Positions 2,643 to 29,547 of a stretch of DNA of 64,000 nt are shown here, piece after piece. The position numbers were made by a program, and so were the translations under genes. This stretch comes from Patescibacteria group bacterium (GTDB taxonomy: Bacteria > Patescibacteriota > Minisyncoccia > Phycocordibacterales > UBA918), in contig JBBTRC010000010.1 of NCBI GenBank assembly GCA_038065355.1, positions 11,452-75,451 on the forward strand, in the 5' to 3' direction. The notes beneath the pieces are model-generated. The model worked only from the letters and a program-made list of their open reading frames with translations. It was not told where the DNA came from and did no database searches. The first letter of the stretch is position 1. Every line of letters begins with the position of its first letter.

Positions 2643-2999
2643 TCATTCCCTACAATCCCGACAGAGACCATGCACGATAATGCCTCCCTTCAGCATCTGT
2701 ATATCTTGCGGCAACGAAACACGAAGGACTGCCTCAGGCACATGAATCTCCGCCACCGTACTGCATTCGTCGCACACAAAGTGATCGTGTAGTTCGTTCG
2801 CCAGTTCGTATGATACAAGGCCCGGTTCTGCATACACCTTGCGCAGTACGCCGTCCGCGGCAAAGCGCTCCAGGTTGCGATAGACCGTTGAGGCGTCGAG
2901 TGTCGGTAGTAACGTAGAGACCTCTTGGGCGGTCAACAGGTGTCGGTTTTCAAAGAGGTCCAAAATCAACTTCTTATTTTTGGTATTTCTTCGCTGCAT
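2643..2999 (-). CDS. zur: Fur-family metalloregulator (Zur-like)
   Basis: 118 aa; paired CxxC motifs (HFVCDEC..., HGLCRDC) typical of the Fur/Zur structural Zn site; immediately upstream of znuACB. Confidence 0.75.
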   Translation of the reverse strand: MQRRNTKNKKLILDLFENRHLLTAQEVSTLLPTLDASTVYRNLERFAADGVLRKVYAEPGLVSYELANELHDHFVCDECSTVAEIHVPEAVLRVSLPQDIQMLKGGIIVHGLCRDCRE

Positions 3000-3026
3000 A
3001 TGGGAAGCGTAACATGCGATTTTTAT

Positions 3027-3047
3027 TAATGCAAACGAATTGCATTA
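3027..3047. promoter_or_regulatory. candidate Zur/Fur-type operator palindrome TAATGCAA-N5-TTGCATTA overlapping zur promoter
   Basis: perfect 8-bp inverted repeat about 25 nt upstream of zur start, overlapping an AT-rich -10-like TAATAAAAAT. Confidence 0.4.
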
Positions 3048-3064
3048 CATGGAGGAGGTGCTTT

Positions 3065-3108
3065 GACAAAAGGCGGGCGGGCACGAAAGTGCCCGCCCGC
3101 CTTTTGTC
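3065..3108. terminator. bidirectional intrinsic terminator (atpC end / zur region)
   Basis: 20-bp GC-rich perfect stem GACAAAAGGCGGGCGGGCAC-GAAA-GTGCCCGCCCGCCTTTTGTC with GAAA tetraloop. Confidence 0.6.
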
Positions 3109-3128
3109 ATCTCAACCCACAACAGCTT

Positions 3129-3377
3129 TTAAATAAGTATATGTGCGTGGTTGTGACTTACTTCCAACGTGCCACTGGTGAGCGGGAATGATTCGCTCGT
3201 GCCATCGGCTTTTTTAATGCGTACCAAGCCAGCGCGTAGCGGAGAAATGAGCGCTTCGTGGTCAGCGAGAATTTCCATATCGCCAGCCGCACCCGGCACA
3301 GCCACCGAGACAACCTCCCCGTCAAAAACAGGGCCGTCCACACGGGTTATGGTTAGTTGCAATAATTTTTGTGACAT
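3129..3377 (-). CDS. atpC: F1 ATP synthase epsilon subunit (short form, beta-sandwich only)
   Basis: 82 aa; matches N-terminal beta-sandwich domain of AtpC, lacks C-terminal helical hairpin; last gene of atp operon. Confidence 0.8.
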   Translation of the reverse strand: MSQKLLQLTITRVDGPVFDGEVVSVAVPGAAGDMEILADHEALISPLRAGLVRIKKADGTSESFPLTSGTLEVSHNHAHILI

Positions 3378-3421
3378 AAGTTAGTTTTGCTGGTCTCTCT
3401 TGCAATAGGGTAACAATTCAT

Positions 3422-3522
3422 GAGATGGCCGAGATGCGAGGCGTGACAAGCTTTTGATTTGAGGTGTACTTGTGTACAGTGAGAAACAAAAGCGCAGTCA
3501 CAACAAAGCAGATTGGCTATAT

Positions 3523-9704: not shown

Positions 9705-9775
9705 AAGGTGTCTCTATGTCCACACCGGCGGCAAATCTTCCTCACGTGTGAAGCTTAAAGGAAAAACTCGACCAC

Positions 9776-21463: not shown

Positions 21464-23851
21464 CTATGTGTCTGTGCGGTTAAGCTTCTCCATTTCTTCC
21501 CAATTCGGCCCGATTTTCACTTCAGCCAAAATCGGGACTCCGTACGTCTCCTTCTCGTCGAGCGCGTGCTCCATGAGGTGAAGAAGCGGTGGTACCTGCG
21601 CTTTTACGTCGCTGGTTTTGACTTCAAACACGAGCTCATCGTGGATCTGAAGGAGGAGGCGGACAGTATCGACCAATTTGTGCCCTTTTATGTGCGCGGC
21701 AATCTGCACCATGGCGATGCGCACGATGTCGGCGGCCGTACCTTGAATCGGAGCGTTGATGGCCATGCGTTCCGCTTGCGCGCGGATAAACGGCACGCTT
21801 GAAGTGATGCCGGGGAAATGACGCCGGCGACCAAACAGAGTTTCGGTGTAGCCCTCTTTGCGAGCAGCTGTTTTTGTATCCTCCAAGTATTCGGAGAGAT
21901 GCGTGAAGGTTTGGAAGTAGGCAGTGAGGAAGGCTTGCGCTTCTTGGCGCGAAGTATCTCCGCCTAAATTTTGGCGGAGCGCATTGACGCCCATGCCGTA
22001 AAGGATGCCAAAGTTGATAACCTTGGCTTGGCGCCGCATGTTGTCGGTCACCTCCTCCGCATTCACGCCAAACACACGCAGTGCCACGCCGCGATGCACG
22101 TCCTCTCCGCGTTTGAAGATATCAATGAGGTTGGGGTCATGGGACATGATCGCGGCAATGCGCAACTCGATTTGAGAGTAGTCGATAGCGACCAGCGTGT
22201 AGCCTGGCGACGCAACAAAAGCTTTGCGGATAGCTCTTCCCTCTTTCGTGCGCGTAGGGATGTTTTGGATATTTGGATCTTTACTCCCCATCCGGCCGGT
22301 CGTGGTGCCAGTTTGGAGGAAAGTGGTATGCAGTTTGCCGTCCTTATCAACCATAGTCGGCAAGGTGTCGATGTAGGTTGAAACCAACTTTTGCAACTCC
22401 CGGTAACGGAGGATGTCCTCGATGATGGGGTGGGTGCCCTTCAGTTTTTCCAATTCTGACTCTTTGGTGGAACGCTGACCGCCGGCGGTTTTTCTGGCGT
22501 TCTTTATTTTGAGACCAAGCGTGTCAAAAAGAATATCTCCGAGTTGCTTCGGCGAATTGATGTTGAATTCTTTTCCGGCGTGCTGGTAGATGCGTTTTTC
22601 GAGCGTCACAAGTTCGACGTGCAGTTCTTTTGAGAGCTGTTTTAGATACTTCACGTCAAGCGTGATGCCGGTCTGTTGCATCATTTCAATAACTGGAATA
22701 AGCGGTTGCTCAATGTCGGTAAAAATATGCCAGAGGCCTTGTTCTTTCACCTTTTGCTTCAAGGCTTTGACTGTCTCTTCCCAGTTGTTGGCTTTGAGAA
22801 AAGAACGTCCGTATTCCAAAATGTCGGCAACGGTTCCGTTGGTGCGTTCGCTCTCCAAGAGCCAAAGCAAAATCGCCGCTTCTTTATGCGCCTCGGGCGT
22901 GATATTGTCATCAACCTCTGTGGCGGCTGGCGCCAGCTCAAATAACTTTCGCACTCGGTCCGTCACGGTGCGGAAACCAAACTCACTGAAGAGTTTGAGG
23001 ATGGCGTCGGTATCGGCGCGCTCGCGCCAGCGCGTGTCGGTGACGGTGAATGACGGAAGCGCGTCGGTGCGGATGGTCGCCAGCATTTTTGAGAATTCAG
23101 CTTCTTCTTTGCCTTCTTTCAAAAGCGAGACGAGGCGCGGAGAGAGACCAGCGTCAAGAAATGCCTGCTCGTTCTTGGCGAGCGCTTTGTATATTTTTTC
23201 GAGTGAACCGAAGGTGGTGATGAGGGTGGTCGCGGTCTTTTCGCCAATGCCGACGATGCCGGGAATGTTATCGGACGTGTCACCGCGGAGACCTTTATAG
23301 TCGGGCACCAACTTAGGCGGAAAGCCGAAGCGGTCAATGACCGTCGCTTCGTCATATAAAATGGTGTCTTTGATTCCTTTTTTCAGCGTGTAGACCTGCA
23401 CCCGTGTCTTGTCGACGCACTGCAGGGTGTCCATATCTCCCGACGCGATAACAACGCGGAGGTTTTTTTCTGTTTTTGTCAGGTGCGCGATGCTACCCAA
23501 GAGATCGTCAGCTTCGAAGCCCGATCGCTCAAATATAGCAATGCCGAACGCCGCAAAGACCTCGCGTGAGCGGTCGATTTGGGCCACGAGCGCCTCGTCA
23601 ATCTTTTCGCGCTTGGCTTTATAGCCGTCGAAGGCGTCGTGACGATAGGTAGGCTCCGGCAAGTCGTAGCACGCGACGAGGTACTCGGGCTTAAACTCTT
23701 CGATGATCTTGAGGAGCATCGTCACGACGCCGTAGAGCGCACCGGTCGGCTCGCCCGTCGGTGAAGAAAAATCCGGCAGAGCGTGGTACGCCCGATGCAG
23801 AATCGCATGCGCGTCGAGAATCACCAAGGTTTCCTGAGACGTTTTAGACAT
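21464..23851 (-). CDS. polA: DNA polymerase I
   Basis: 5'-3' exonuclease domain (LVILDAHAILHRAYHA...), family-A polymerase motifs (DYSQIELR, RRQAKVINFGILYGMG, QIHDELVFE); ORF extends to 23938, likely start MSKTSQETL. Confidence 0.9.
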   Translation of the reverse strand: MSKTSQETLVILDAHAILHRAYHALPDFSSPTGEPTGALYGVVTMLLKIIEEFKPEYLVACYDLPEPTYRHDAFDGYKAKREKIDEALVAQIDRSREVFAAFGIAIFERSGFEADDLLGSIAHLTKTEKNLRVVIASGDMDTLQCVDKTRVQVYTLKKGIKDTILYDEATVIDRFGFPPKLVPDYKGLRGDTSDNIPGIVGIGEKTATTLITTFGSLEKIYKALAKNEQAFLDAGLSPRLVSLLKEGKEEAEFSKMLATIRTDALPSFTVTDTRWRERADTDAILKLFSEFGFRTVTDRVRKLFELAPAATEVDDNITPEAHKEAAILLWLLESERTNGTVADILEYGRSFLKANNWEETVKALKQKVKEQGLWHIFTDIEQPLIPVIEMMQQTGITLDVKYLKQLSKELHVELVTLEKRIYQHAGKEFNINSPKQLGDILFDTLGLKIKNARKTAGGQRSTKESELEKLKGTHPIIEDILRYRELQKLVSTYIDTLPTMVDKDGKLHTTFLQTGTTTGRMGSKDPNIQNIPTRTKEGRAIRKAFVASPGYTLVAIDYSQIELRIAAIMSHDPNLIDIFKRGEDVHRGVALRVFGVNAEEVTDNMRRQAKVINFGILYGMGVNALRQNLGGDTSRQEAQAFLTAYFQTFTHLSEYLEDTKTAARKEGYTETLFGRRRHFPGITSSVPFIRAQAERMAINAPIQGTAADIVRIAMVQIAAHIKGHKLVDTVRLLLQIHDELVFEVKTSDVKAQVPPLLHLMEHALDEKETYGVPILAEVKIGPNWEEMEKLNRTDT

Positions 23852-23902
23852 AATGTCAGTATACTTTGTTTCTCCGACGTGCACTATAAAAAAACACTTT
23901 AC

Positions 23903-23930
23903 ACTTGACATAAGGTCAAGTATGTGTATA
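23903..23930 (+). promoter_or_regulatory. sigma70-like promoter TTGACA-N16-TATATT for the 24001 ORF
   Basis: near-consensus -35/-10; predicted transcript starts with perfect 9-bp hairpin CAAGCTACA-TGG-TGTAGCTTG and SD GGAAGGAAGGAA. Confidence 0.45.
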
Positions 23931-24000
23931 TTTAACAAGCTACATGGTGTAGCTTGTACCTTAATCAGTACCTCACAACTCGAATGGAAGGAAGGAACTA

Positions 24001-24603
24001 ATGCAAACCGCTCATGTCATTCTGAAGAGCATTTCTCCGCTTTTGCTCAATCCGATGACCGACGAGACGCTTGATGAGCTTTTCGCCGGCTCCGGAGCAC
24101 GCAAATTGCGGAAGACTGACGTTACGCAGGAAGCAGTCGCCGCCAAGAAGGTCATCCGCGACGATGACGGCAACATCGGCCTGCCGGTCGAATACCTCTT
24201 CGCCGCCTTGGTGAACGCCGGTCGCTTCGTGAAGTTTGATTCCAAAAAGAACTTCACCAACGCAACGTCATCGCTGGTGCCCGGCCTGCTTACGCTCGGC
24301 GAAATGTTCTACCCGTTCAAAGATCAGAAAACGCCCTGGACGATCGACAAACGCCGCGGCCGTCTGGCCTCAACCGGTGTCGCCGTCGCCATCATTCGTC
24401 CCAAGTTCAAAGATTGGGCGATTGACCTCACGGCAGAATTCGACGAGGCGCAGGTGAGCGAATCGAAGATTCGCGAACTTTTCAACGCGGCCGGTCGCTT
24501 TTCCGGCCTCGGCGATTTTCGGCCAGCGTGCAAGGGTCCGTTTGGGCGCTTTACGATCGACAGCTGGGAAGTCGTCAAGTCAGAAGTTCGTGAAGCCGCC
24601 TGA
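24001..24603 (+). CDS. hypothetical protein with RAMP-like glycine-rich loop (200 aa)
   Basis: strong SD; C-terminal GRFSGLGDFRPACKGPFGRFTI resembles the G-rich loop (GxGxxxxxGhG + beta-strand) of Cas5/Cas6/Cas7 RAMPs; N-terminal SPLLLN strand. Confidence 0.5.
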   Translation: MQTAHVILKSISPLLLNPMTDETLDELFAGSGARKLRKTDVTQEAVAAKKVIRDDDGNIGLPVEYLFAALVNAGRFVKFDSKKNFTNATSSLVPGLLTLGEMFYPFKDQKTPWTIDKRRGRLASTGVAVAIIRPKFKDWAIDLTAEFDEAQVSESKIRELFNAAGRFSGLGDFRPACKGPFGRFTIDSWEVVKSEVREAA

Positions 24604-25916
24604 CGTACAAGTCTGAATGGCAAGCATGAGCACTCTGCTCCTTCTTGCTATTCTCGCCCGTTCTGTGGGTCGGAGTCTGTGTCATGGACTCCGACTTTAC
24701 ATTACGCACTGTGACGTGTCGTCGGGCAACGTCCGGTCCAGCAGGTTGCGTTGTGCTTAGTTGCGGGTTGGGAGTTTGCAAACTCCCAACAGCTTACGGA
24801 TGGGTAAACTATGGCGCAGTGGGCTCATCCGCGCTCCAGTACGTTGCAGTCACCTATGGATCGGGAGCTTCTGGAGCTCCCGATTTTTCAGACCCAATTT
24901 TGAACGCTTAGTCTACGCGTAGTCACCTGGACTAGTGCATACTTAAGGTCGGGAGTTTCGCCTCTCGACACCTTACCGTTCGGAGTGGTGATGTATGGCT
25001 GTGTCCAGTTAGCCAAAGCAAGGTCCACTACAGGCCAGAGGACTCTTCCTTTGGCAACCTTTGTTCGGTATACTCCCGTTCACTTTACCCGACCAACCTT
25101 TGGTTTACTCCAGCATGGGTTGGATGCACTCCGGTGCTTCCAACATGAATAGAGTAATCTTGGGTGCACTTGACTTGGCTCTTGTCGCGTTAACCACGGT
25201 AAGGGTCGAGAGCTTGGTCTCTCGACAATTCTCAGCTCGGCTTAGTGGGCTGGACTCCCCCAATCTCCACTACGATGGATCACTGTACTGGTCAGGAATC
25301 ACAAGATTCCTGACACATTTGCACTACTGTGCGGCACGCACCACTATCCTGCGTCATGGTGTACTCCGGTTAGCTCTGGGCTGGAAGCTAGAGATAGCTT
25401 CCAGCAAAATATCGCTCTGTAAGGTTGGGTACAGTTGAGTGGTCTCTTGTGTCGTCACCTCATCTTTGGGTTGGAGGGTTTCGACTCGTCAACACTCTTT
25501 ACAGCAAGGTATTGTAGCGTAGCGTTGGCTTCACTACCCTCTCGTAGAATTAGGCTTAGTCGAGTATGGGCGGGGAGGCCTGGGCCTCCCCGCATATCTT
25601 TATTCAAGTTTTGTTCCTTACGTCCTGCGGAGCCTTGCTCCGCCTGATCGCTGGATGTGTATCCAGCCCGATGAGTCCGAAAGGACGAAATCAGTTTTGT
25701 TCTGAGGTCACGTGCGTCTACGTGCGTTCGGCCACTCCGAACTTATGTTTGGGTCGGGAGAGTCCTGACTTTCCCGACATTCTTGCTGTACGCAATTGTG
25801 TGGTCCACCATCCAGTGGTTCCGCATGGTTAGCTACGCCGGAGTAGCGTCCGGGCAGGGAATCTCACCCGAGATTCCCTGCAGTTCTTTGAAAATTAGTC
25901 TTGAAAGGAGACTGTA
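24604..25916 (+). repeat. 1.3-kb non-coding region A densely packed with perfect hairpins, including GTCGGGAG/CTCCCGAC-family repeats
   Basis: family hairpins at about 24669-24695, 24948-24969, 25205-25226, 25753-25778; other perfect stems 24767-24790, 24861-24883(+T5), 25292-25313, 25380-25405, 25570-25593, 25855-25880; no ORF with RBS. Confidence 0.65.
25644..25694 (+). ncRNA. hammerhead ribozyme-like motif, type III topology (possibly degenerate: U4->C)
   Basis: CUGAU-C^-[GCUGGAU-GUGU-AUCCAGC]-CCGAUGA-[GUCC-GAAA-GGAC]-GAAA-UCAG: stems I, II, III, the GAAA and cleavage triplet AUC all in canonical arrangement; only core U4 replaced by C. Confidence 0.45.
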
Positions 25917-27743
25917 ATGAAGCATCCCAACATGGCGAGAGCCTTTCCCCGCCATATCCATGAAGAGACGAAAGACAGCCAGCGCGAAGCGTTGAACTTT
26001 CTCACGGAACATGGGTGTGGTCTCATCGAAAAGCCGACCGGTTCTGGTAAGACCGCCACCGGTATCACGTTTTTACGAGCGTATGAAAAAGCTGGCGTGC
26101 CAGTGCTTTTCTATCTCGTGCCCAACAAAACACTCGCAGCACAAGTGCAGGAACAATACCCTGAAGTTCGAGTCGTCTACGGACGAAACGAACATCCCTG
26201 TCTGTACTACGAGGACAGCTATCAAGCTGATGAAGTACCGTGTTCCATGCTCGGCGACTGTCCCCACCGTGTCGATCAAGATACTGGACAGACACACGAA
26301 CCGGGAGCTTTGCCTTGCCCGTATCTTCAGCAGAAGTACGAAGCGAAGCAGGGCACGATCGTCGTCGCTACCTATGCCTTCTATCTTTTCGCCCATTTCT
26401 TTCAAAAGGAATGGGGAAAGAAACAGGAAGCGATGGTGATTGACGAGGCACATCGCCTTGCCGAATCTATCCGCAGCGTGCTTTCCTATGAGATCACTGA
26501 TTACCAGCTCGGCCGGGCACTTGAAGCGCTTTCTGGCTTTGCTGATGATCAAACCATTCTGCGATTAGAGGAATTCCAAACGTCGTTTCTCAAGATCATC
26601 AAGAGCAAACCTTCGGGCCAGCGGATGATTCTGACAGAGGACGACATCTACGAACTTCTCTATCACGTCCAGCTCTTGCAACCAACGCGCCTGCGCCAAC
26701 AAATTGCCGAAGCAGTACGTAAAGGCCGGCTCGATCCGATCGCTGACCGCGAGACGCTCCGGCGTCTTGAGGATATTACCTACAGCCTGACGCGTTACCT
26801 GCGTTCGCTCGAGTATTCAGTGAAAGATGGGAAACGCAAAGCGCTTAACTACATCTTCGCCTACTGGCAATCAGAAAAGGGCGAGCATGACAAAGTGCAG
26901 TATCGGCTAGTCGTAAAGGCGTATGCGGTTGGACCGCTGATTGCCAAAATGTTGCCGAAACGTCTCTTGGCCATGAGCGCGACGATCAGCGATCCAGACA
27001 TGTTGAAGATCGAAAGCGGGATTGATTTGCCGTTTTTGTCTTTGACATCTGACTGGCCGTCTGAGAACACGCGCATCTTCATGCCGACTGACTCACCAAA
27101 CTTGGCCGTCAATAAACGCGGCCGAGATGGGGTGGTGCGAACGCAAAATACGCGGGAAAAGACCAAAATCCTGCGCAAGGTCGCCAAGGCATGTAAACGC
27201 TTTGGCGACCAAGGACTGCGGTCACTCGTTGTGGTTGTCTCAAATGACGAACGACACAAATTCCTGGCCCTAGCGGAAGAGGAAGGTGTCGATGTCATCA
27301 GCTACGATGCAGAACGAAAGCCACGAGAGGTCGCCCAAGCCTTTAAAGATGGCGAGGGTGACGTGCTTGTTGGCACTACCGCTCACTTTGGCGAAGGAAT
27401 CGACCTGCCCGACGGCACGGCGCCGATCACTTTCTTTCTGCGGCCAGGCTACCCAAATCCTACTGAACCAGGTACGCAATTCGAGGCAGATCGTTTTGGC
27501 AGTCGACGGTGGGCTCTGTGGCAATGGCGCGTTATCGTGCAAGCGCTACAAGTCCGCGGTCGGAACGTGCGGAGCGTAGAAGACAAGGGTGTAACCATCT
27601 TTGTTTCCCAACAATTCCGCAAGTTTCTATTACATTCATTGCCGGAGTGGCTGAAACCCGCCTACCGCGGCAACAGCACCTGGGAACAATGCCTCGACGA
27701 AACGGAGGCGTTACTTCTGAAGCGGAAACGACTGAAAAAGTAG
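25917..27743 (+). CDS. DinG/XPD/YoaA-family Fe-S DNA helicase (superfamily 2, DEAH)
   Basis: motif I EKPTGSGKT, four Cys between motifs Ia and II (C95,C110,C115,C134: Fe-S domain), motif II VIDEAHRL, motif III SAT, C-terminal HFGEGIDLPDG and QxxGRNVRS motifs; SD AAGGAG. Confidence 0.8.
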   Translation: MKHPNMARAFPRHIHEETKDSQREALNFLTEHGCGLIEKPTGSGKTATGITFLRAYEKAGVPVLFYLVPNKTLAAQVQEQYPEVRVVYGRNEHPCLYYEDSYQADEVPCSMLGDCPHRVDQDTGQTHEPGALPCPYLQQKYEAKQGTIVVATYAFYLFAHFFQKEWGKKQEAMVIDEAHRLAESIRSVLSYEITDYQLGRALEALSGFADDQTILRLEEFQTSFLKIIKSKPSGQRMILTEDDIYELLYHVQLLQPTRLRQQIAEAVRKGRLDPIADRETLRRLEDITYSLTRYLRSLEYSVKDGKRKALNYIFAYWQSEKGEHDKVQYRLVVKAYAVGPLIAKMLPKRLLAMSATISDPDMLKIESGIDLPFLSLTSDWPSENTRIFMPTDSPNLAVNKRGRDGVVRTQNTREKTKILRKVAKACKRFGDQGLRSLVVVVSNDERHKFLALAEEEGVDVISYDAERKPREVAQAFKDGEGDVLVGTTAHFGEGIDLPDGTAPITFFLRPGYPNPTEPGTQFEADRFGSRRWALWQWRVIVQALQVRGRNVRSVEDKGVTIFVSQQFRKFLLHSLPEWLKPAYRGNSTWEQCLDETEALLLKRKRLKK

Positions 27744-28560
27744 TCGCTGCAATATCGTGCGGTATCCTTCGCTCCTGTACAGTTAGGTTAGCTACGGTCG
27801 ACTCGACTCCGGGCGGAAGAGCTCCGGTTCTCCCGCGACGTTAGGTCCTGTTTGGTCAGGTTCACACCAGTTCGGTCACCTGTGGTCCGGGCTGGGGATT
27901 AACATCTCCAGCAGAATTTAGTGCAGTGTGGGCTTCCCTATACTTCTCTGGCCTACGCAATCGCACTCTGCGGGCTGGAACGTAAATACGTTCCAGCAAC
28001 ATTCTGTCCGGCAAGGCACGGTTATCTGCGCTAGGTTGGGTCAAACTCAAGTATTGTATGGGCTGGGAAAGCTTCGCTTTCCCTGCTTCGTATCGTATTG
28101 TCGGCTTTAGTGAACCTTACTTGCCCGCTCTGTAGAGTCCTAGTCTAAGGGTCGGGAGATGAACGTCTGCCGACAATATTTCTCCGGGCTTACCTGTCGC
28201 TAGCTTCTGTTTTGTGCACCAATGCACTCTAAGGGTCGAGGAATCGTCTGACTCCTCGACAACTTTCTGTCTGGTGGCGTTGCCTCCAGTCCACTCCGGT
28301 TGCGTGGGGCTGAGTAAGCTATGGGTCAGTGTCTCAGGACACTGACAACATATCGTGACGTTCTGTCGGGTAACTTGCGCCATTCTTGGTAAGGATTAAC
28401 TAGTCTGTGAGTTGGGAGACTTTGTCTCCCAACAACTTTGAGCTAGGTAACGTCCACTAGAGTTAGTCGTCCTGGCGTTCTCTGTGCTTTCGTCACCTTC
28501 TGTATCGGTCGGGAGCGAAAAAGTCGCTCCCGACGTTTCTCTTGAAAGAAAGGAAATCCC
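27744..28560 (+). repeat. 0.8-kb non-coding region B, paralogous to region A (hairpin family plus decayed hammerhead unit)
   Basis: family hairpins at about 28151-28174, 28235-28260, 28411-28433, 28508-28534, variants 28062-28086; GCTGGAACGT-AAAT-ACGTTCCAGC (27974-27997) and GTCAGTGTC-TCAG-GACACTGAC (28325-28346) are covarying homologues of region A hairpins. Confidence 0.6.
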
Positions 28561-28929
28561 ATGCCGCTTGAAATCGGTAAAGGTTGTCGCGGCATGACGT
28601 CAGTGCATGCCAAAAGACACAAGAAGTTGATGTTTCACCACACAGTCACGCGAGAAGCGTTTCATTTCGTCAGTTGGTTGGTTGACCAGAATGAGATTCT
28701 TGAAATTGATCTTGGTAAGGTCGGCACCTATCGAGGTAATACTGAGTTTCGGGTCGACATCGACGACAACACCTTGAGCTTTTTAGTCAAAGGAAACTTC
28801 TCGTACCAAATTATACGAACTACCATCCGACCAATCGTCGCTTACCAACCAAATGCGCTGTTAAAATTTCTTCAGCGTTGTGAGGAAGAGTGGCAAAAGT
28901 CGATGGGGAATCCAGTCGAAACACGATGA
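28561..28929 (+). CDS. hypothetical protein (122 aa)
   Basis: ORF with SD AAGGAAA; no recognisable motif; flanked on both sides by family hairpins. Confidence 0.45.
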   Translation: MPLEIGKGCRGMTSVHAKRHKKLMFHHTVTREAFHFVSWLVDQNEILEIDLGKVGTYRGNTEFRVDIDDNTLSFLVKGNFSYQIIRTTIRPIVAYQPNALLKFLQRCEEEWQKSMGNPVETR

Positions 28930-29044
28930 CTTGCAGTAGCGTAAACCTATCTTCGCCCAGGTATTCTTGACTGTGGTTGCCTGCGGGTGGGGGTTATTTC
29001 CCCCACAACACTCAAGACTATATTTCTACAGTTATTCTTTACGG

Positions 29045-29103
29045 GTCGGGAGCTTCTTTTTGAGACTCCCGACAAACACCTCAAATAACGAGGTGTTTTT
29101 TAT
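29045..29103. terminator. family hairpin (GTCGGGAG-N13-CTCCCGAC) followed by bidirectional terminator CACCTC-AAATAAC-GAGGTG-T6
   Basis: second hairpin is flanked by A- and T-runs, between the 122-aa ORF and convergent tsaE. Confidence 0.5.
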
Positions 29104-29547
29104 TTAAAAAACTTGGGCGATTCGTTGTCCGTTTTTCTGTATCTCAAGCTGGATTGTCACGAGACTACGAGGAAGCGTGGCGGAGATTTTTTCGGCCCAT
29201 TCAATGCAAAAGAGCGTGTGTGACTGTTGCAGAAATTCAGAGAAACGCAGCGGCGCTAGCTCGGACACACTCTCGATGCGGTAGGCGTCCATGTGAAGGA
29301 GGGTTGGCCACTGTGCGTCGGTAGTTTCGTACTGTTTCAGAATAATAAAGGTTGGACTGGTGACCGTTTCGGTGACACCGAGATGGCGCGCGAGTGTTTG
29401 CACAAAAGTTGTTTTCCCCGCTCCGAGGTCACCCGAGAGCGCAATGACTGTAGCACTCTCGGTCGAGAGTGCTCGACAGCGCTCGATGACGCGAAGAACA
29501 AAAGCGTCGAGCTCTTCGAGCGTGTGAATGGCGATTGTCTCTATCAT
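29104..29547 (-). CDS. tsaE: tRNA threonylcarbamoyladenosine biosynthesis protein TsaE
   Basis: 147 aa; [13 protein letters not shown]-loop and SPTF motif of YjeE/TsaE. Confidence 0.8.

What the first reader, a model, noticed from the sequence alone, without database searches (positions are those of the whole stretch)
24001..24603. Orphan 200-aa protein with a RAMP-type glycine-rich loop, driven by a consensus promoter and a 5'-UTR hairpin
The C-terminal segment AGRFSGLGDFRPACKGPFGRFTID has the GxGxxxxxGhG-beta pattern. That pattern is characteristic of the G-rich loop of RAMP-fold RNA-binding Cas proteins (Cas5/Cas6/Cas7). The N-terminus (ILKSISPLLLNP) resembles the first strand and SPLHIG-like region of Cas7/Csm3. 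The gene has TTGACA-N16-TATATT and a very strong SD. The predicted transcript begins with a perfect 9-bp hairpin. The assignment is tentative, but a RAMP protein next to a field of conserved hairpins is a natural protein-RNA pair.
Basis: inference. Interest (0 to 1): 0.6.

Follow-up and report, generated by a model that had tools for sequence, protein, structure and literature searches.

The report
VIPR RNA-guided system with helicase
The 200-aa protein is a Vipr protein, a small Cas7-like RNA-binding protein described in 2026 preprints, and it sits in a complete VIPR locus with 24 guide RNAs and a DinG-type helicase, so it is a new example of a recently described system, not an orphan.

Summary
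The ORF, promoter, ribosome-binding site and 5'-UTR hairpin are all present. The protein is not an orphan: a profile of its homologues finds 8,049 cluster representatives. That profile also matches the solved SUSP1 Vipr protein (PDB 36pp, E=8e-15). The AlphaFold model (pLDDT 90) resembles Cas7/Csm3 proteins.

The "field of hairpins" consists of three arrays holding 24 guide-RNA units on the gene's strand. Each unit is about 12 pentamers of form Y-N-N-N-G/C followed by an 8-bp-plus hairpin. All 8 stem pairs show compensatory changes.

Between the arrays lie a DinG-like helicase (best match: type IV-A CRISPR DinG) and a small conserved ORF. One promoter and one terminator bracket the whole locus. 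Five other Patescibacteria-type loci have the same layout in different genomic neighbourhoods.

This fits the VIPR systems reported by the Doudna lab in 2026: a Vipr filament on a pentamer-repeat RNA that reads double-stranded DNA two bases at a time, skipping every third base. The novelty is modest: a new member of a known kind.

One guide matches perfectly (24 of 24 guide bases) the DNA encoding the conserved AlaX motif IFHPQGGGQPSD. This lead is unresolved.

The parts
23905..23932 (+). Sigma-70-type promoter TTGACA-N16-TATATT of the locus. The -35 box sits inside the palindrome TTGAC-N5-GTCAA.
   Evidence: 11 of 12 consensus positions; an equivalent promoter lies upstream of vipr in the related loci, and the palindrome recurs in L001 and L176.
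23935..23957 (+). 5'-UTR hairpin ACAAGCTACA-TGG-TGTAGCTTGT (10 bp).
   Evidence: A hairpin at the same place, with a different sequence, occurs in most of the related loci examined.
24001..24603 (+). vipr gene: a 200-aa single-RRM RAMP protein with a thumb hairpin (about residues 114-136) and a G-loop (residues 165-184).
24604..25881 (+). vrRNA array 1, 13 units. Each unit is a 3-4 nt leader (AAC-like), about 12 pentamers Y-N-N-N-S, then a hairpin. The hairpins start at 24669, 24767, 24860, 24948, 25034, 25119, 25205, 25291, 25380, 25470, 25570, 25753 and 25854.
   Evidence: phase table; stem covariation; covariance-model hits.
25644..25694 (+). Type III hammerhead-like element inside array 1: CUGAU-C / stem I GCUGGAU..AUCCAGC / CCGAUGA / stem II GUCC-GAAA-GGAC / GAA / AUCAG. 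The predicted cut is after C25649. The core carries U4->C.
   Evidence: Rfam Hammerhead_3 at 20 bits, below the gathering score; stronger matches with the canonical CUGAUGA core at equivalent places in L003 (38.9 and 29.5 bits, both still below the 48.5-bit gathering score), and a similar element in L001.
25917..27743 (+). Accessory gene: a 608-aa DinG/XPD-like superfamily-2 helicase with four conserved Cys in the position of an Fe-S domain.
   Evidence: Pfam Helicase_C_2, ResIII, DEAD and DEAD_2. PADLOC typeIV_DinG at E=4.7e-42, full length; 65% identical to the helicase of L001. A helicase follows vipr in 6 of 6 Patescibacteria-type loci.
27744..28534 (+). vrRNA array 2, 9 units. The hairpins start at 27798, 27891, 27974, 28062, 28151, 28235, 28325, 28411 and 28508.
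28261..28346 (+). The vrRNA unit whose 12 NN dinucleotides (TC CT GG TG CC CC CC TG GG TG AA AT), read with a 1-nt skip, match the DNA encoding IFHPQGGGQPSD of AlaX-type proteins.
28561..28929 (+). Small 122-aa ORF of unknown function, a second candidate accessory gene.
   Evidence: 39% identity to an ORF at the same position in L001 (E=1e-28); weaker homologues in L176 and L178. No Pfam or PADLOC match. The AF2 single-sequence model is unusable.
28930..29073 (+). vrRNA array 3, 2 units. The hairpins are at 28987-29006 and 29045-29073. The second unit is short and degenerate.
29074..29098 (+). Intrinsic-terminator-like hairpin AAACACCTC..GAGGTGTTT followed by TTTATTT, at the end of the locus.

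Best explanation
The region 23905-29098 is one VIPR (Viral Interference Programmable Repeat) locus on the chromosome of a Patescibacteria (CPR) bacterium.

Proposed mechanism, by homology to phage SUSP1 VIPR unless marked otherwise:
1. One promoter drives vipr, three vrRNA arrays, a DinG-like helicase and a small ORF, ending at one terminator (inferred from layout).
2. The long transcript is cut into RNAs of about 85-95 nt. Each has about 12 pentamers followed by a 3' hairpin. One internal hammerhead-like element may make one of the cuts. How the other cuts are made is unknown.
3. Vipr protomers polymerise along the pentamer tract, one protomer per pentamer.
4. The G-loop (D172, F173, R174) and thumb (R133) hold the conserved pyrimidine and G/C positions of each pentamer. 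The two variable bases that follow the pyrimidine are left exposed.
5. The filament reads double-stranded DNA two bases at a time, skipping every third base, and forms a gapped R-loop that blocks transcription.
6. The DinG-like helicase is recruited to the R-loop to extend or reinforce interference, as DinG does in type IV-A CRISPR systems. This step is by analogy and from my own knowledge.

The natural targets are probably phages or other mobile elements of this bacterium. This is unproven.
For: Shown here:
- The family profile matches the solved SUSP1 Vipr protein over its full length, E=8.4e-15.
- The confident AF2 model has a Cas7 fold.
- The SUSP1 residues that contact the GGY motif are D177, W178, R179, R138 and H17. 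They align with D172, F173, R174, R133 and N17. D172, F173, R174 and R133 are invariant or nearly invariant in this family (residue roles from 10.64898/2026.04.26.720927).
- There are 24 units on the gene's strand, and their pentamer phase is locked to the hairpin start. Position 1 is T 67% / C 19%. Positions 2-4 are near-uniform. Position 5 is G 44% / C 37%.
- The top YNNGG-like scores on the + strand of the 64-kb window fall mostly (11 of the top 13) in the two intergenic regions.
- The hairpin stem is 97% paired, all 8 pairs show changes on both sides, and 0 of 500 shuffles reach the observed values.
- A covariance model built from the window units finds units only inside this locus in the window. 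It also finds them in the equivalent intergenic arrays of five independent loci.
- Gene order vipr - 1.2-2.2 kb array - DinG-like helicase holds in 6 of 6 Patescibacteria-type loci, each with different flanking genes.
- A phage-context relative (L177) carries canonical CNNGG runs beside its vipr gene.
- The guides differ completely between loci.

From the literature: the preprint describes seven VIPR types, YNNNG-type repeat variants, hammerhead-interspersed arrays and helicase accessory genes (10.64898/2026.04.26.720920).
Against: - No expression, processing, binding or repression data exist for this locus.
- The repeat is weaker than the canonical YNNGG. The first G is barely conserved (35% G), and the second is G or C.
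- The 3' tail is a simple hairpin, not the pseudoknot of SUSP1.
- Only one hammerhead-like element exists for 24 units, and its core has U4->C, so processing is unexplained.
- I could not assign the type number because the preprint's figures and supplementary tables are not held.
- No phage target was found for six guides tested in the viral collection or for one guide in metagenomes.
Confidence: 0.88

Rival explanations
1. It is a degenerate or minimal type IV-like CRISPR-Cas system. A Cas7 protein plus DinG would use the hairpins as CRISPR repeats and the 60-nt stretches between them as ordinary contiguous spacers.
For: - The helicase's best defence-library match is type IV-A CRISPR DinG, E=4.7e-42 and full length.
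- The protein has a Cas7 fold.
- In L005 the hairpin is a nearly identical 28-nt repeat, much like a CRISPR repeat.
Against: - The supposed spacers have a strict 5-nt periodicity locked to the hairpin. Captured spacers would not show this.
- There are no Csf1, Cas5 or Cas6 genes in the locus. The only other ORF has no Cas match.
- No CRISPR-like repeat appears in 64 kb.
- The protein matches Vipr by sequence, and no Cas7 family by sequence.
Confidence: 0.04
2. The Vipr-vrRNA filament targets RNA transcripts rather than DNA, like the type III and type VII Cas7 proteins it most resembles in structure.
For: - The top Foldseek hits are RNA-targeting Cas7 proteins: type VII, Csm3, Cas7-11.
- SUSP1 VIPR can form a guide-RNA duplex with single-stranded RNA in vitro (10.64898/2026.04.26.720927).
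Against: - In SUSP1, full filament assembly and silencing need the DNA triplex, and targets on either strand are silenced.
- The linked accessory gene here is a DNA helicase of the DinG/XPD family.
- The one candidate target matches in the antisense orientation as expected for DNA. That orientation would also allow mRNA pairing, so it does not discriminate between the two.
Confidence: 0.05
3. The hairpins are ordinary intergenic repeat elements or terminators, unrelated to the protein. The protein would be a phage-derived gene of unknown function that happens to lie next to them.
For: - Several hairpins score as terminator-like.
- Rfam has no family for them.
Against: - The units occur nowhere else in the 64-kb window.
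- They always lie on the vipr strand.
- They carry the pentamer periodicity.
- They accompany vipr and the helicase in five independent loci with unrelated flanks.
Confidence: 0.03

Closest known systems
VIPR system of Escherichia phage SUSP1 (type II VIPR; PDB 36pp; bioRxiv 10.64898/2026.04.26.720920 and 10.64898/2026.04.26.720927)
   Same: - A homologous protein of about 200 aa with a single RRM, thumb and G-loop.
- The D-(W/F)-R G-loop triad and the thumb arginine are conserved.
- The guide RNAs are about 12 pentanucleotide repeats with hypervariable dinucleotides, capped by a structured 3' tail.
- There is no CRISPR array and no adaptation genes.
- Long intergenic RNA regions flank the gene.
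   Different: - Only about 25% identity, detectable with a profile.
- The repeat is Y-N-N-N-G/C rather than YNNGG.
- The tail is a hairpin rather than a pseudoknot.
- There are 24 guides rather than 4.
- The accessory gene is a DinG-like helicase rather than a DNA-binding Vap1.
- The locus is chromosomal in a Patescibacterium, not in a lytic phage.
- The G-loop carries a 4-residue insertion (A-C-K-G).
Helicase- or nuclease-associated VIPR types III-V, and hammerhead-interspersed arrays of types I and V (same preprint)
   Same: - An enzyme accessory gene.
- A cellular location.
- Alternative repeat consensus; YNNNG is mentioned in the preprint's methods.
- A hammerhead-like element inside the array.
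   Different: - I could not map this locus to a type number.
- Here the hammerhead-like element occurs once per array rather than between every pair of units.
- Its core carries U4->C.
Type IV-A CRISPR-Cas (Csf2/Cas7 filament plus DinG/Csf4)
   Same: - An RNA-guided Cas7-fold filament is paired with a DinG-family helicase.
- The helicase is the best PADLOC match.
- The expected outcome is interference without DNA cleavage (my own knowledge of type IV-A).
   Different: - No Csf1, Cas5 or Cas6.
- No CRISPR array.
- The guide is read discontinuously.
- The filament protein is a Vipr, not a Csf2.
Csm3 / type VII Cas7 / Cas7-11 (closest solved folds)
   Same: RRM core, thumb hairpin and G-rich loop. 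Foldseek probability 1.0, TM about 0.5.
   Different: - 9-16% sequence identity.
- Those proteins act within multi-protein RNA-targeting complexes on contiguous guides.
- This locus has no Cas10 or Cas14-type partner.

Membership tests
VIPR system | Protein homologous to an experimentally characterised Vipr | tested here: met
   The profile of 46 homologues matches PDB 36pp_D (SUSP1 Vipr) at E=8.4e-15, covering residues 2-187 of the profile and 2-191 of the chain. The single sequence gives E=4.9e-7 over the C-terminal 60 residues.
VIPR system | Minimal RAMP fold: one RRM, a thumb and a glycine-rich loop | tested here: met
   The AF2 model has pLDDT 89.9 and pTM 0.85, with beta-alpha-beta elements, a beta-hairpin at 114-136 and a G-loop at 165-184. 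The 50 Foldseek PDB hits shown are all from CRISPR effector complexes (type VII Cas7, Csm, Cmr, Cas7-11).
VIPR system | Residues that bind the conserved repeat bases (SUSP1 H17, R138, D177, W178, R179) | tested here: met
   They align to N17, R133, D172, F173 and R174. R133 and R174 are invariant, and D172 and F173 are at least 90% conserved in the family. H17->N and W178->F are substitutions.
VIPR system | Guide RNAs made of 9-16 tandem pentanucleotide repeats with fixed and hypervariable positions | tested here: met
   Most units have 10-15 in-phase pentamers, modally 12. Position 1 is a pyrimidine in 86%, position 5 is G/C in 81%, and positions 2-4 are near-uniform. This is the YNNNG-like variant rather than YNNGG. 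The guides differ completely between loci.
VIPR system | Structured, conserved 3' tail after the repeat tract | tested here: met
   A hairpin follows each tract. It is 97% paired, 8 of 8 pairs covary, and 0 of 500 shuffles reach the observed values. Arrays start with a tract and end with a hairpin. It is a hairpin, not the SUSP1 pseudoknot.
VIPR system | No CRISPR array or cas adaptation genes; a small locus with an accessory (vap) gene | tested here: met
   No CRISPR-like repeats occur in 64 kb. The locus holds only vipr, a DinG-like helicase and a 122-aa ORF. The flanking genes are housekeeping: polA, holA-like, tsaE, pilB-like, ruvB, yebC. More distant ORFs were not scanned against Cas models.
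VIPR system | vrRNAs are expressed, bind Vipr, and direct DNA binding by the 1-nt-skip rule | not testable with these tools
   This needs small-RNA sequencing, pull-down and reporter assays.
VIPR system | Natural targets with at least 80% NN match | tested here: inconclusive
   One guide matches the AlaX motif DNA at 24 of 24 bases. Six guides gave no convincing hit in viral contigs, and one gave none in metagenomes. There is no self-target in the window (maximum 17 of 24).
Type IV-A CRISPR-Cas | DinG (Csf4) helicase | tested here: met
   PADLOC typeIV_DinG PDLC01439, E=4.7e-42, profile positions 19-568 of 575.
Type IV-A CRISPR-Cas | Csf1, Csf3 (Cas5) and Cas6/Csf5 genes plus a CRISPR array with contiguous spacers | tested here: not met
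   The only other ORF in the locus has no PADLOC or Pfam match. No CRISPR repeats were found. The inter-hairpin tracts are pentamer-periodic.
Hammerhead ribozyme, type III | Three stems around the core CUGAUGA ... GAA with a cleavable H17 | tested here: inconclusive
   The stems, GAA and C17 are present, but the core reads CCGAUGA. The Rfam score is 20 bits against a gathering score of 48.5. Sister loci carry versions with the canonical CUGAUGA core that score higher but still below the gathering score (L003: 38.9 and 29.5 bits).

The most novel reading that the evidence does not exclude
This chromosomal, DinG-coupled VIPR may be aimed at least partly at a cellular gene rather than at phages. 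One of its 24 guides is a perfect 24-of-24 match, with the skipped base on the codon wobble position, to the DNA encoding IFHPQGGGQPSD. That is the most conserved motif of AlaX-type alanyl-tRNA editing proteins across bacteria, archaea and other organisms.

If real, a Patescibacterium would be using a wobble-proof guide to silence alaX. The silenced copy could be its own (gene regulation), or one carried by a host cell, a competitor, or an invading element.
Probability: 0.15. Interest if true: 0.75.

Novelty: new member of a known kind. Interest (0 to 1): 0.4.

Why it matters
VIPR systems were described only in 2026. They are proposed as the ancestors of CRISPR RAMP effectors and as a very small programmable DNA-binding platform.

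This locus is a clean natural example from the candidate phyla radiation, with several useful features:
- It has 24 guides.
- It has a simple hairpin tail.
- It uses a relaxed repeat, Y-N-N-N-G/C, which shows which repeat positions can vary.
- It is hard-wired to a DinG helicase close to the type IV-A CRISPR one, which bears on how RAMP filaments and DinG came to work together.

The finding also shows that a reader working from raw sequence alone can recover this class. The AlaX-matching guide, if confirmed, would widen the known target range of VIPR beyond mobile elements.

Tried and rejected
Searches and analyses that gave nothing:
- Pfam, NCBIfam and PADLOC gave nothing for the 200-aa protein. 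Only PHROGs and the PDB sequence search were informative.
- Rfam has no family for the arrays.
- The preprint's supplementary tables are not held, so I could not check whether this protein (AAB388_03275) is already listed or which type it belongs to.

Target searches with the published 1-nt-skip rule:
- 10-repeat exact seeds of four guides found nothing in viral contigs, and one found nothing in metagenomes.
- A 9-repeat seed of the 15-repeat guide hit two phage tRNA D-arm sequences. Its extension matched only 3 and 5 of 12 further bases, which is chance level.
- No guide from the window or from L001, L003 or L005 matches the 64-kb window or the related loci at 19 of 24 or better.
- No second guide hits the flanks of the 48 metagenome AlaX loci above chance.
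- AlaX relatives are almost absent from the viral collection: one contig, at its edge.
- The AlaRS gene next to the VIPR locus in L176 lacks the motif, so that adjacency is coincidental.

Other dead ends:
- No guides are shared between loci.
- The AF2 model of the 122-aa ORF from a single sequence was unusable (pLDDT 51), and the homologue search found only itself.
- Period-5 signals elsewhere in the window (for example 2961-3441) are not vrRNA units according to the covariance model.

Full report
**Observation.** The ORF at 24001..24603 (+) exists and encodes the quoted 200-aa protein. The promoter TTGACA-N16-TATATT lies at 23905-23932, matches 11 of 12 consensus positions, and is the only strong + strand match in 23700-29300. 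A GGAAGGAAGGAA ribosome-binding site precedes the ATG. A perfect 10-bp hairpin lies at 23935-23957. It begins 3 nt after the -10 box, so the transcript probably keeps only part of it (inference).

The word "orphan" is wrong. The word-indexed search found 142 homologues, mostly from Patescibacteria assemblies. The identical protein is deposited as hypothetical protein AAB388_03275 of a "Patescibacteria group bacterium". PHROGs gives a full-length match to phrog_4652 (E=7e-18). A profile search of 1.84 billion cluster representatives finds 8,049 members at E<=1e-3.

**What the protein is.** Pfam, NCBIfam and PADLOC were silent. A profile of 46 homologues matches one solved protein over its full length: PDB 36pp, "SUSP1 Vipr protein", E=8.4e-15.

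Two 2026 preprints from the Doudna laboratory describe VIPR systems. Their main points are:
- A single-RRM RAMP protein of about 20 kDa polymerises on a vrRNA made of 9-16 YNNGG pentamers plus a 3' tail.
- The thumb and G-loop hold the GGY bases.
- The NN bases pair with double-stranded DNA while every third target base is skipped.
- The result is transcriptional silencing.

The AlphaFold model is confident (pLDDT 89.9). The 50 Foldseek PDB hits shown are all from CRISPR effector complexes: type VII Cas7, Csm, Cmr and Cas7-11. The SUSP1 residues that contact the repeat are H17, R138, D177, W178 and R179. They align with N17, R133, D172, F173 and R174. R133, D172, F173 and R174 are invariant or nearly invariant in the family.

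**What the hairpins are.** The 1.3 kb after the gene (24604-25916), the 0.8 kb after the next gene (27744-28560) and 28930-29073 have no convincing ORFs. They hold 24 units on the + strand.

Each unit has three parts:
- a short AAC-like leader;
- a tract of usually 60 nt;
- a hairpin such as GTCGGGAG...CTCCCGAC.

When the tracts are cut into pentamers counted back from the hairpin start, the composition is as follows:
- Position 1 is T or C in 86% of 252 pentamers.
- Position 5 is G or C in 81%.
- Positions 2-4 are close to uniform.

This is a Y-N-N-N-G/C version of the published repeat. The preprint's methods mention YNNNG variants.

On the + strand, 11 of the 13 highest YNNGG-like scores in the 64-kb window fall in these intergenic regions. 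The stem is 97% paired across 21 units, all 8 pairs have changes on both sides, and no shuffle or slid control comes close.

A covariance model built from the window units finds further units only in this locus within the window. It also finds them on the gene's strand in the matching intergenic regions of L001, L003, L005, L176 and L178, which were not used to build it. Arrays begin with a tract and end with a hairpin, so the hairpin is the 3' tail, as published.

The variable positions differ completely between loci. A more distant relative in a phage-like context (L177) carries canonical CNNGG runs beside its gene.

**The rest of the locus.**
- The 608-aa gene at 25917-27743 is a DinG/XPD-type helicase (Pfam). 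Its best defence-library match is type IV-A CRISPR-associated DinG (E=4.7e-42, full length).
- The 122-aa ORF at 28561-28929 has no family match. It is conserved at the same place in L001 (39% identity) and more weakly in L176 and L178.
- A terminator-like hairpin closes the locus at 29074-29098.
- The order vipr, array, helicase holds in all six Patescibacteria-type loci examined. The flanking genes differ each time, and L001 has a large serine recombinase next door. This points to a mobile module.
- In the window the flanks are housekeeping genes: polA, a holA-like gene, tsaE, a pilB-like ATPase, ruvB and yebC. G+C content does not stand out.

**A ribozyme-like element.** At 25644-25694 there is a type III hammerhead arrangement with stems I-III, GAA and a C17 cleavage site, but its core reads CCGAUGA. 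Rfam scores it at only 20 bits. L003 has two higher-scoring hammerhead matches with the canonical CUGAUGA core in its array (38.9 and 29.5 bits, both below the 48.5-bit gathering score), and L001 has one similar element. The window element is therefore most likely a homologous hammerhead, possibly weakened. The preprint reports hammerhead-interspersed vrRNA arrays. Here there is only one element for 24 units, so the processing of the other units is unexplained.

**Mechanism.** The architecture, homology and conservation above are shown. The steps below are inferred by homology to SUSP1 VIPR:
- a single transcript runs from the promoter to the terminator;
- it is processed into RNAs of about 90 nt;
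- one Vipr protomer binds each pentamer;
- double-stranded DNA is read by the two bases after the pyrimidine, with a 1-nt skip;
- transcription of the target is silenced.

The helicase's role in extending interference from the R-loop is inferred by analogy with type IV-A CRISPR, from my own knowledge.

**Targets.** I converted guides to NNx patterns.
- No guide matches the window at 80% or better.
- Exact 10-repeat seeds from four guides found nothing in viral contigs, and one found nothing in metagenomes.
- A 9-repeat seed hit two phage tRNA genes but extended only at chance level.

The guide of unit 28261-28346 is the exception.
- Its 10-repeat seed hit at least 101 genomes, all in the antisense of one coding motif, (T)IFHPQGGGQP-x-D. 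The skipped bases fall on the wobble positions.
- The full 12-repeat pattern hit 48 metagenome contigs, all encoding IFHPQGGGQP(S/R)D.
- The proteins are AlaX-type: the tRNA-synt_2c C-terminal part plus tRNA_SAD.
- The expected number of perfect 24-base matches by chance in the 596-Gb genome collection is about 0.004. Allowing for all scans I ran, it is roughly 0.03-0.04. This is my calculation and assumes uniform base composition.

The match is therefore probably not chance, but it is a single observation. AlaX relatives are nearly absent from the viral collection. No second guide hits near these genes. I could not see the rest of this genome. The biological target remains open.

**Comparison and novelty.** This is a VIPR system. 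It meets every sequence-level defining feature I could test.

It differs from the characterised SUSP1 system in six ways: repeat consensus, tail structure, number of guides, accessory gene, host and genomic setting. It shares the DinG partner with type IV-A CRISPR but lacks that system's other genes and its array, so it is not a member of that family.

The preprint already reports cellular, enzyme-associated types and variant repeats. I therefore rate this locus a new member of a known kind, of moderate interest. The AlaX-matching guide is the one element that could make it more than that.

Noticed in passing
window 28261-28346: The NN dinucleotides of one vrRNA guide, read with a 1-nt skip, match perfectly (24 of 24) the DNA encoding IFHPQGGGQPSD of AlaX-type alanyl-tRNA editing proteins. 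The skipped bases fall on codon wobble positions. There were at least 101 seed hits in genomes, 15 of them full matches, and 48 full matches in metagenomes.
   Followed up: partly
window 25644-25694; L003 8935-8989 and 9857-9905; L001 about 9716-9770: A type III hammerhead-like element sits inside the vrRNA array. The window copy has U4->C in the catalytic core. The sister loci carry copies with the canonical CUGAUGA core.
   Followed up: partly
window 23905-23919; L001 and L176 upstream of vipr: The -35 box lies within a palindrome TTGAC-N5-GTCAA that recurs in two related loci. It could be an operator for a regulator of the locus.
   Followed up: no
L001 6299-6427 (-) and 6579-7904 (+): A LOOT RNA (Rfam RF03000, 75 bits) and a large serine recombinase lie immediately upstream of the VIPR module in the closest related locus. 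This suggests the module rides on a mobile element there.
   Followed up: no
L005 8626-10259: In this relative the hairpin tail is an almost invariant 28-nt repeat (AGCGGGAGTCATTAACTTGACTCCCGCT). The array looks superficially like a CRISPR array with pentamer-periodic spacers.
   Followed up: no
L178 7619-9805 and 11609-12890: This related locus carries about 38 recognisable vrRNA units by the phase/hairpin scan, a much larger set than the 4 reported for phage SUSP1.
   Followed up: no
window 25917-27743: The DinG-like helicase keeps four cysteines (C95, C109, C115, C144) where XPD/DinG proteins bind an Fe-S cluster. They are conserved in the L001 orthologue.
   Followed up: no
L176 10925-12802: A short (625-aa) alanyl-tRNA synthetase gene lies directly after the VIPR helicase in one relative. 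It lacks the FHPQGGGQP motif, so the link to the AlaX-matching guide appears coincidental.
   Followed up: yes
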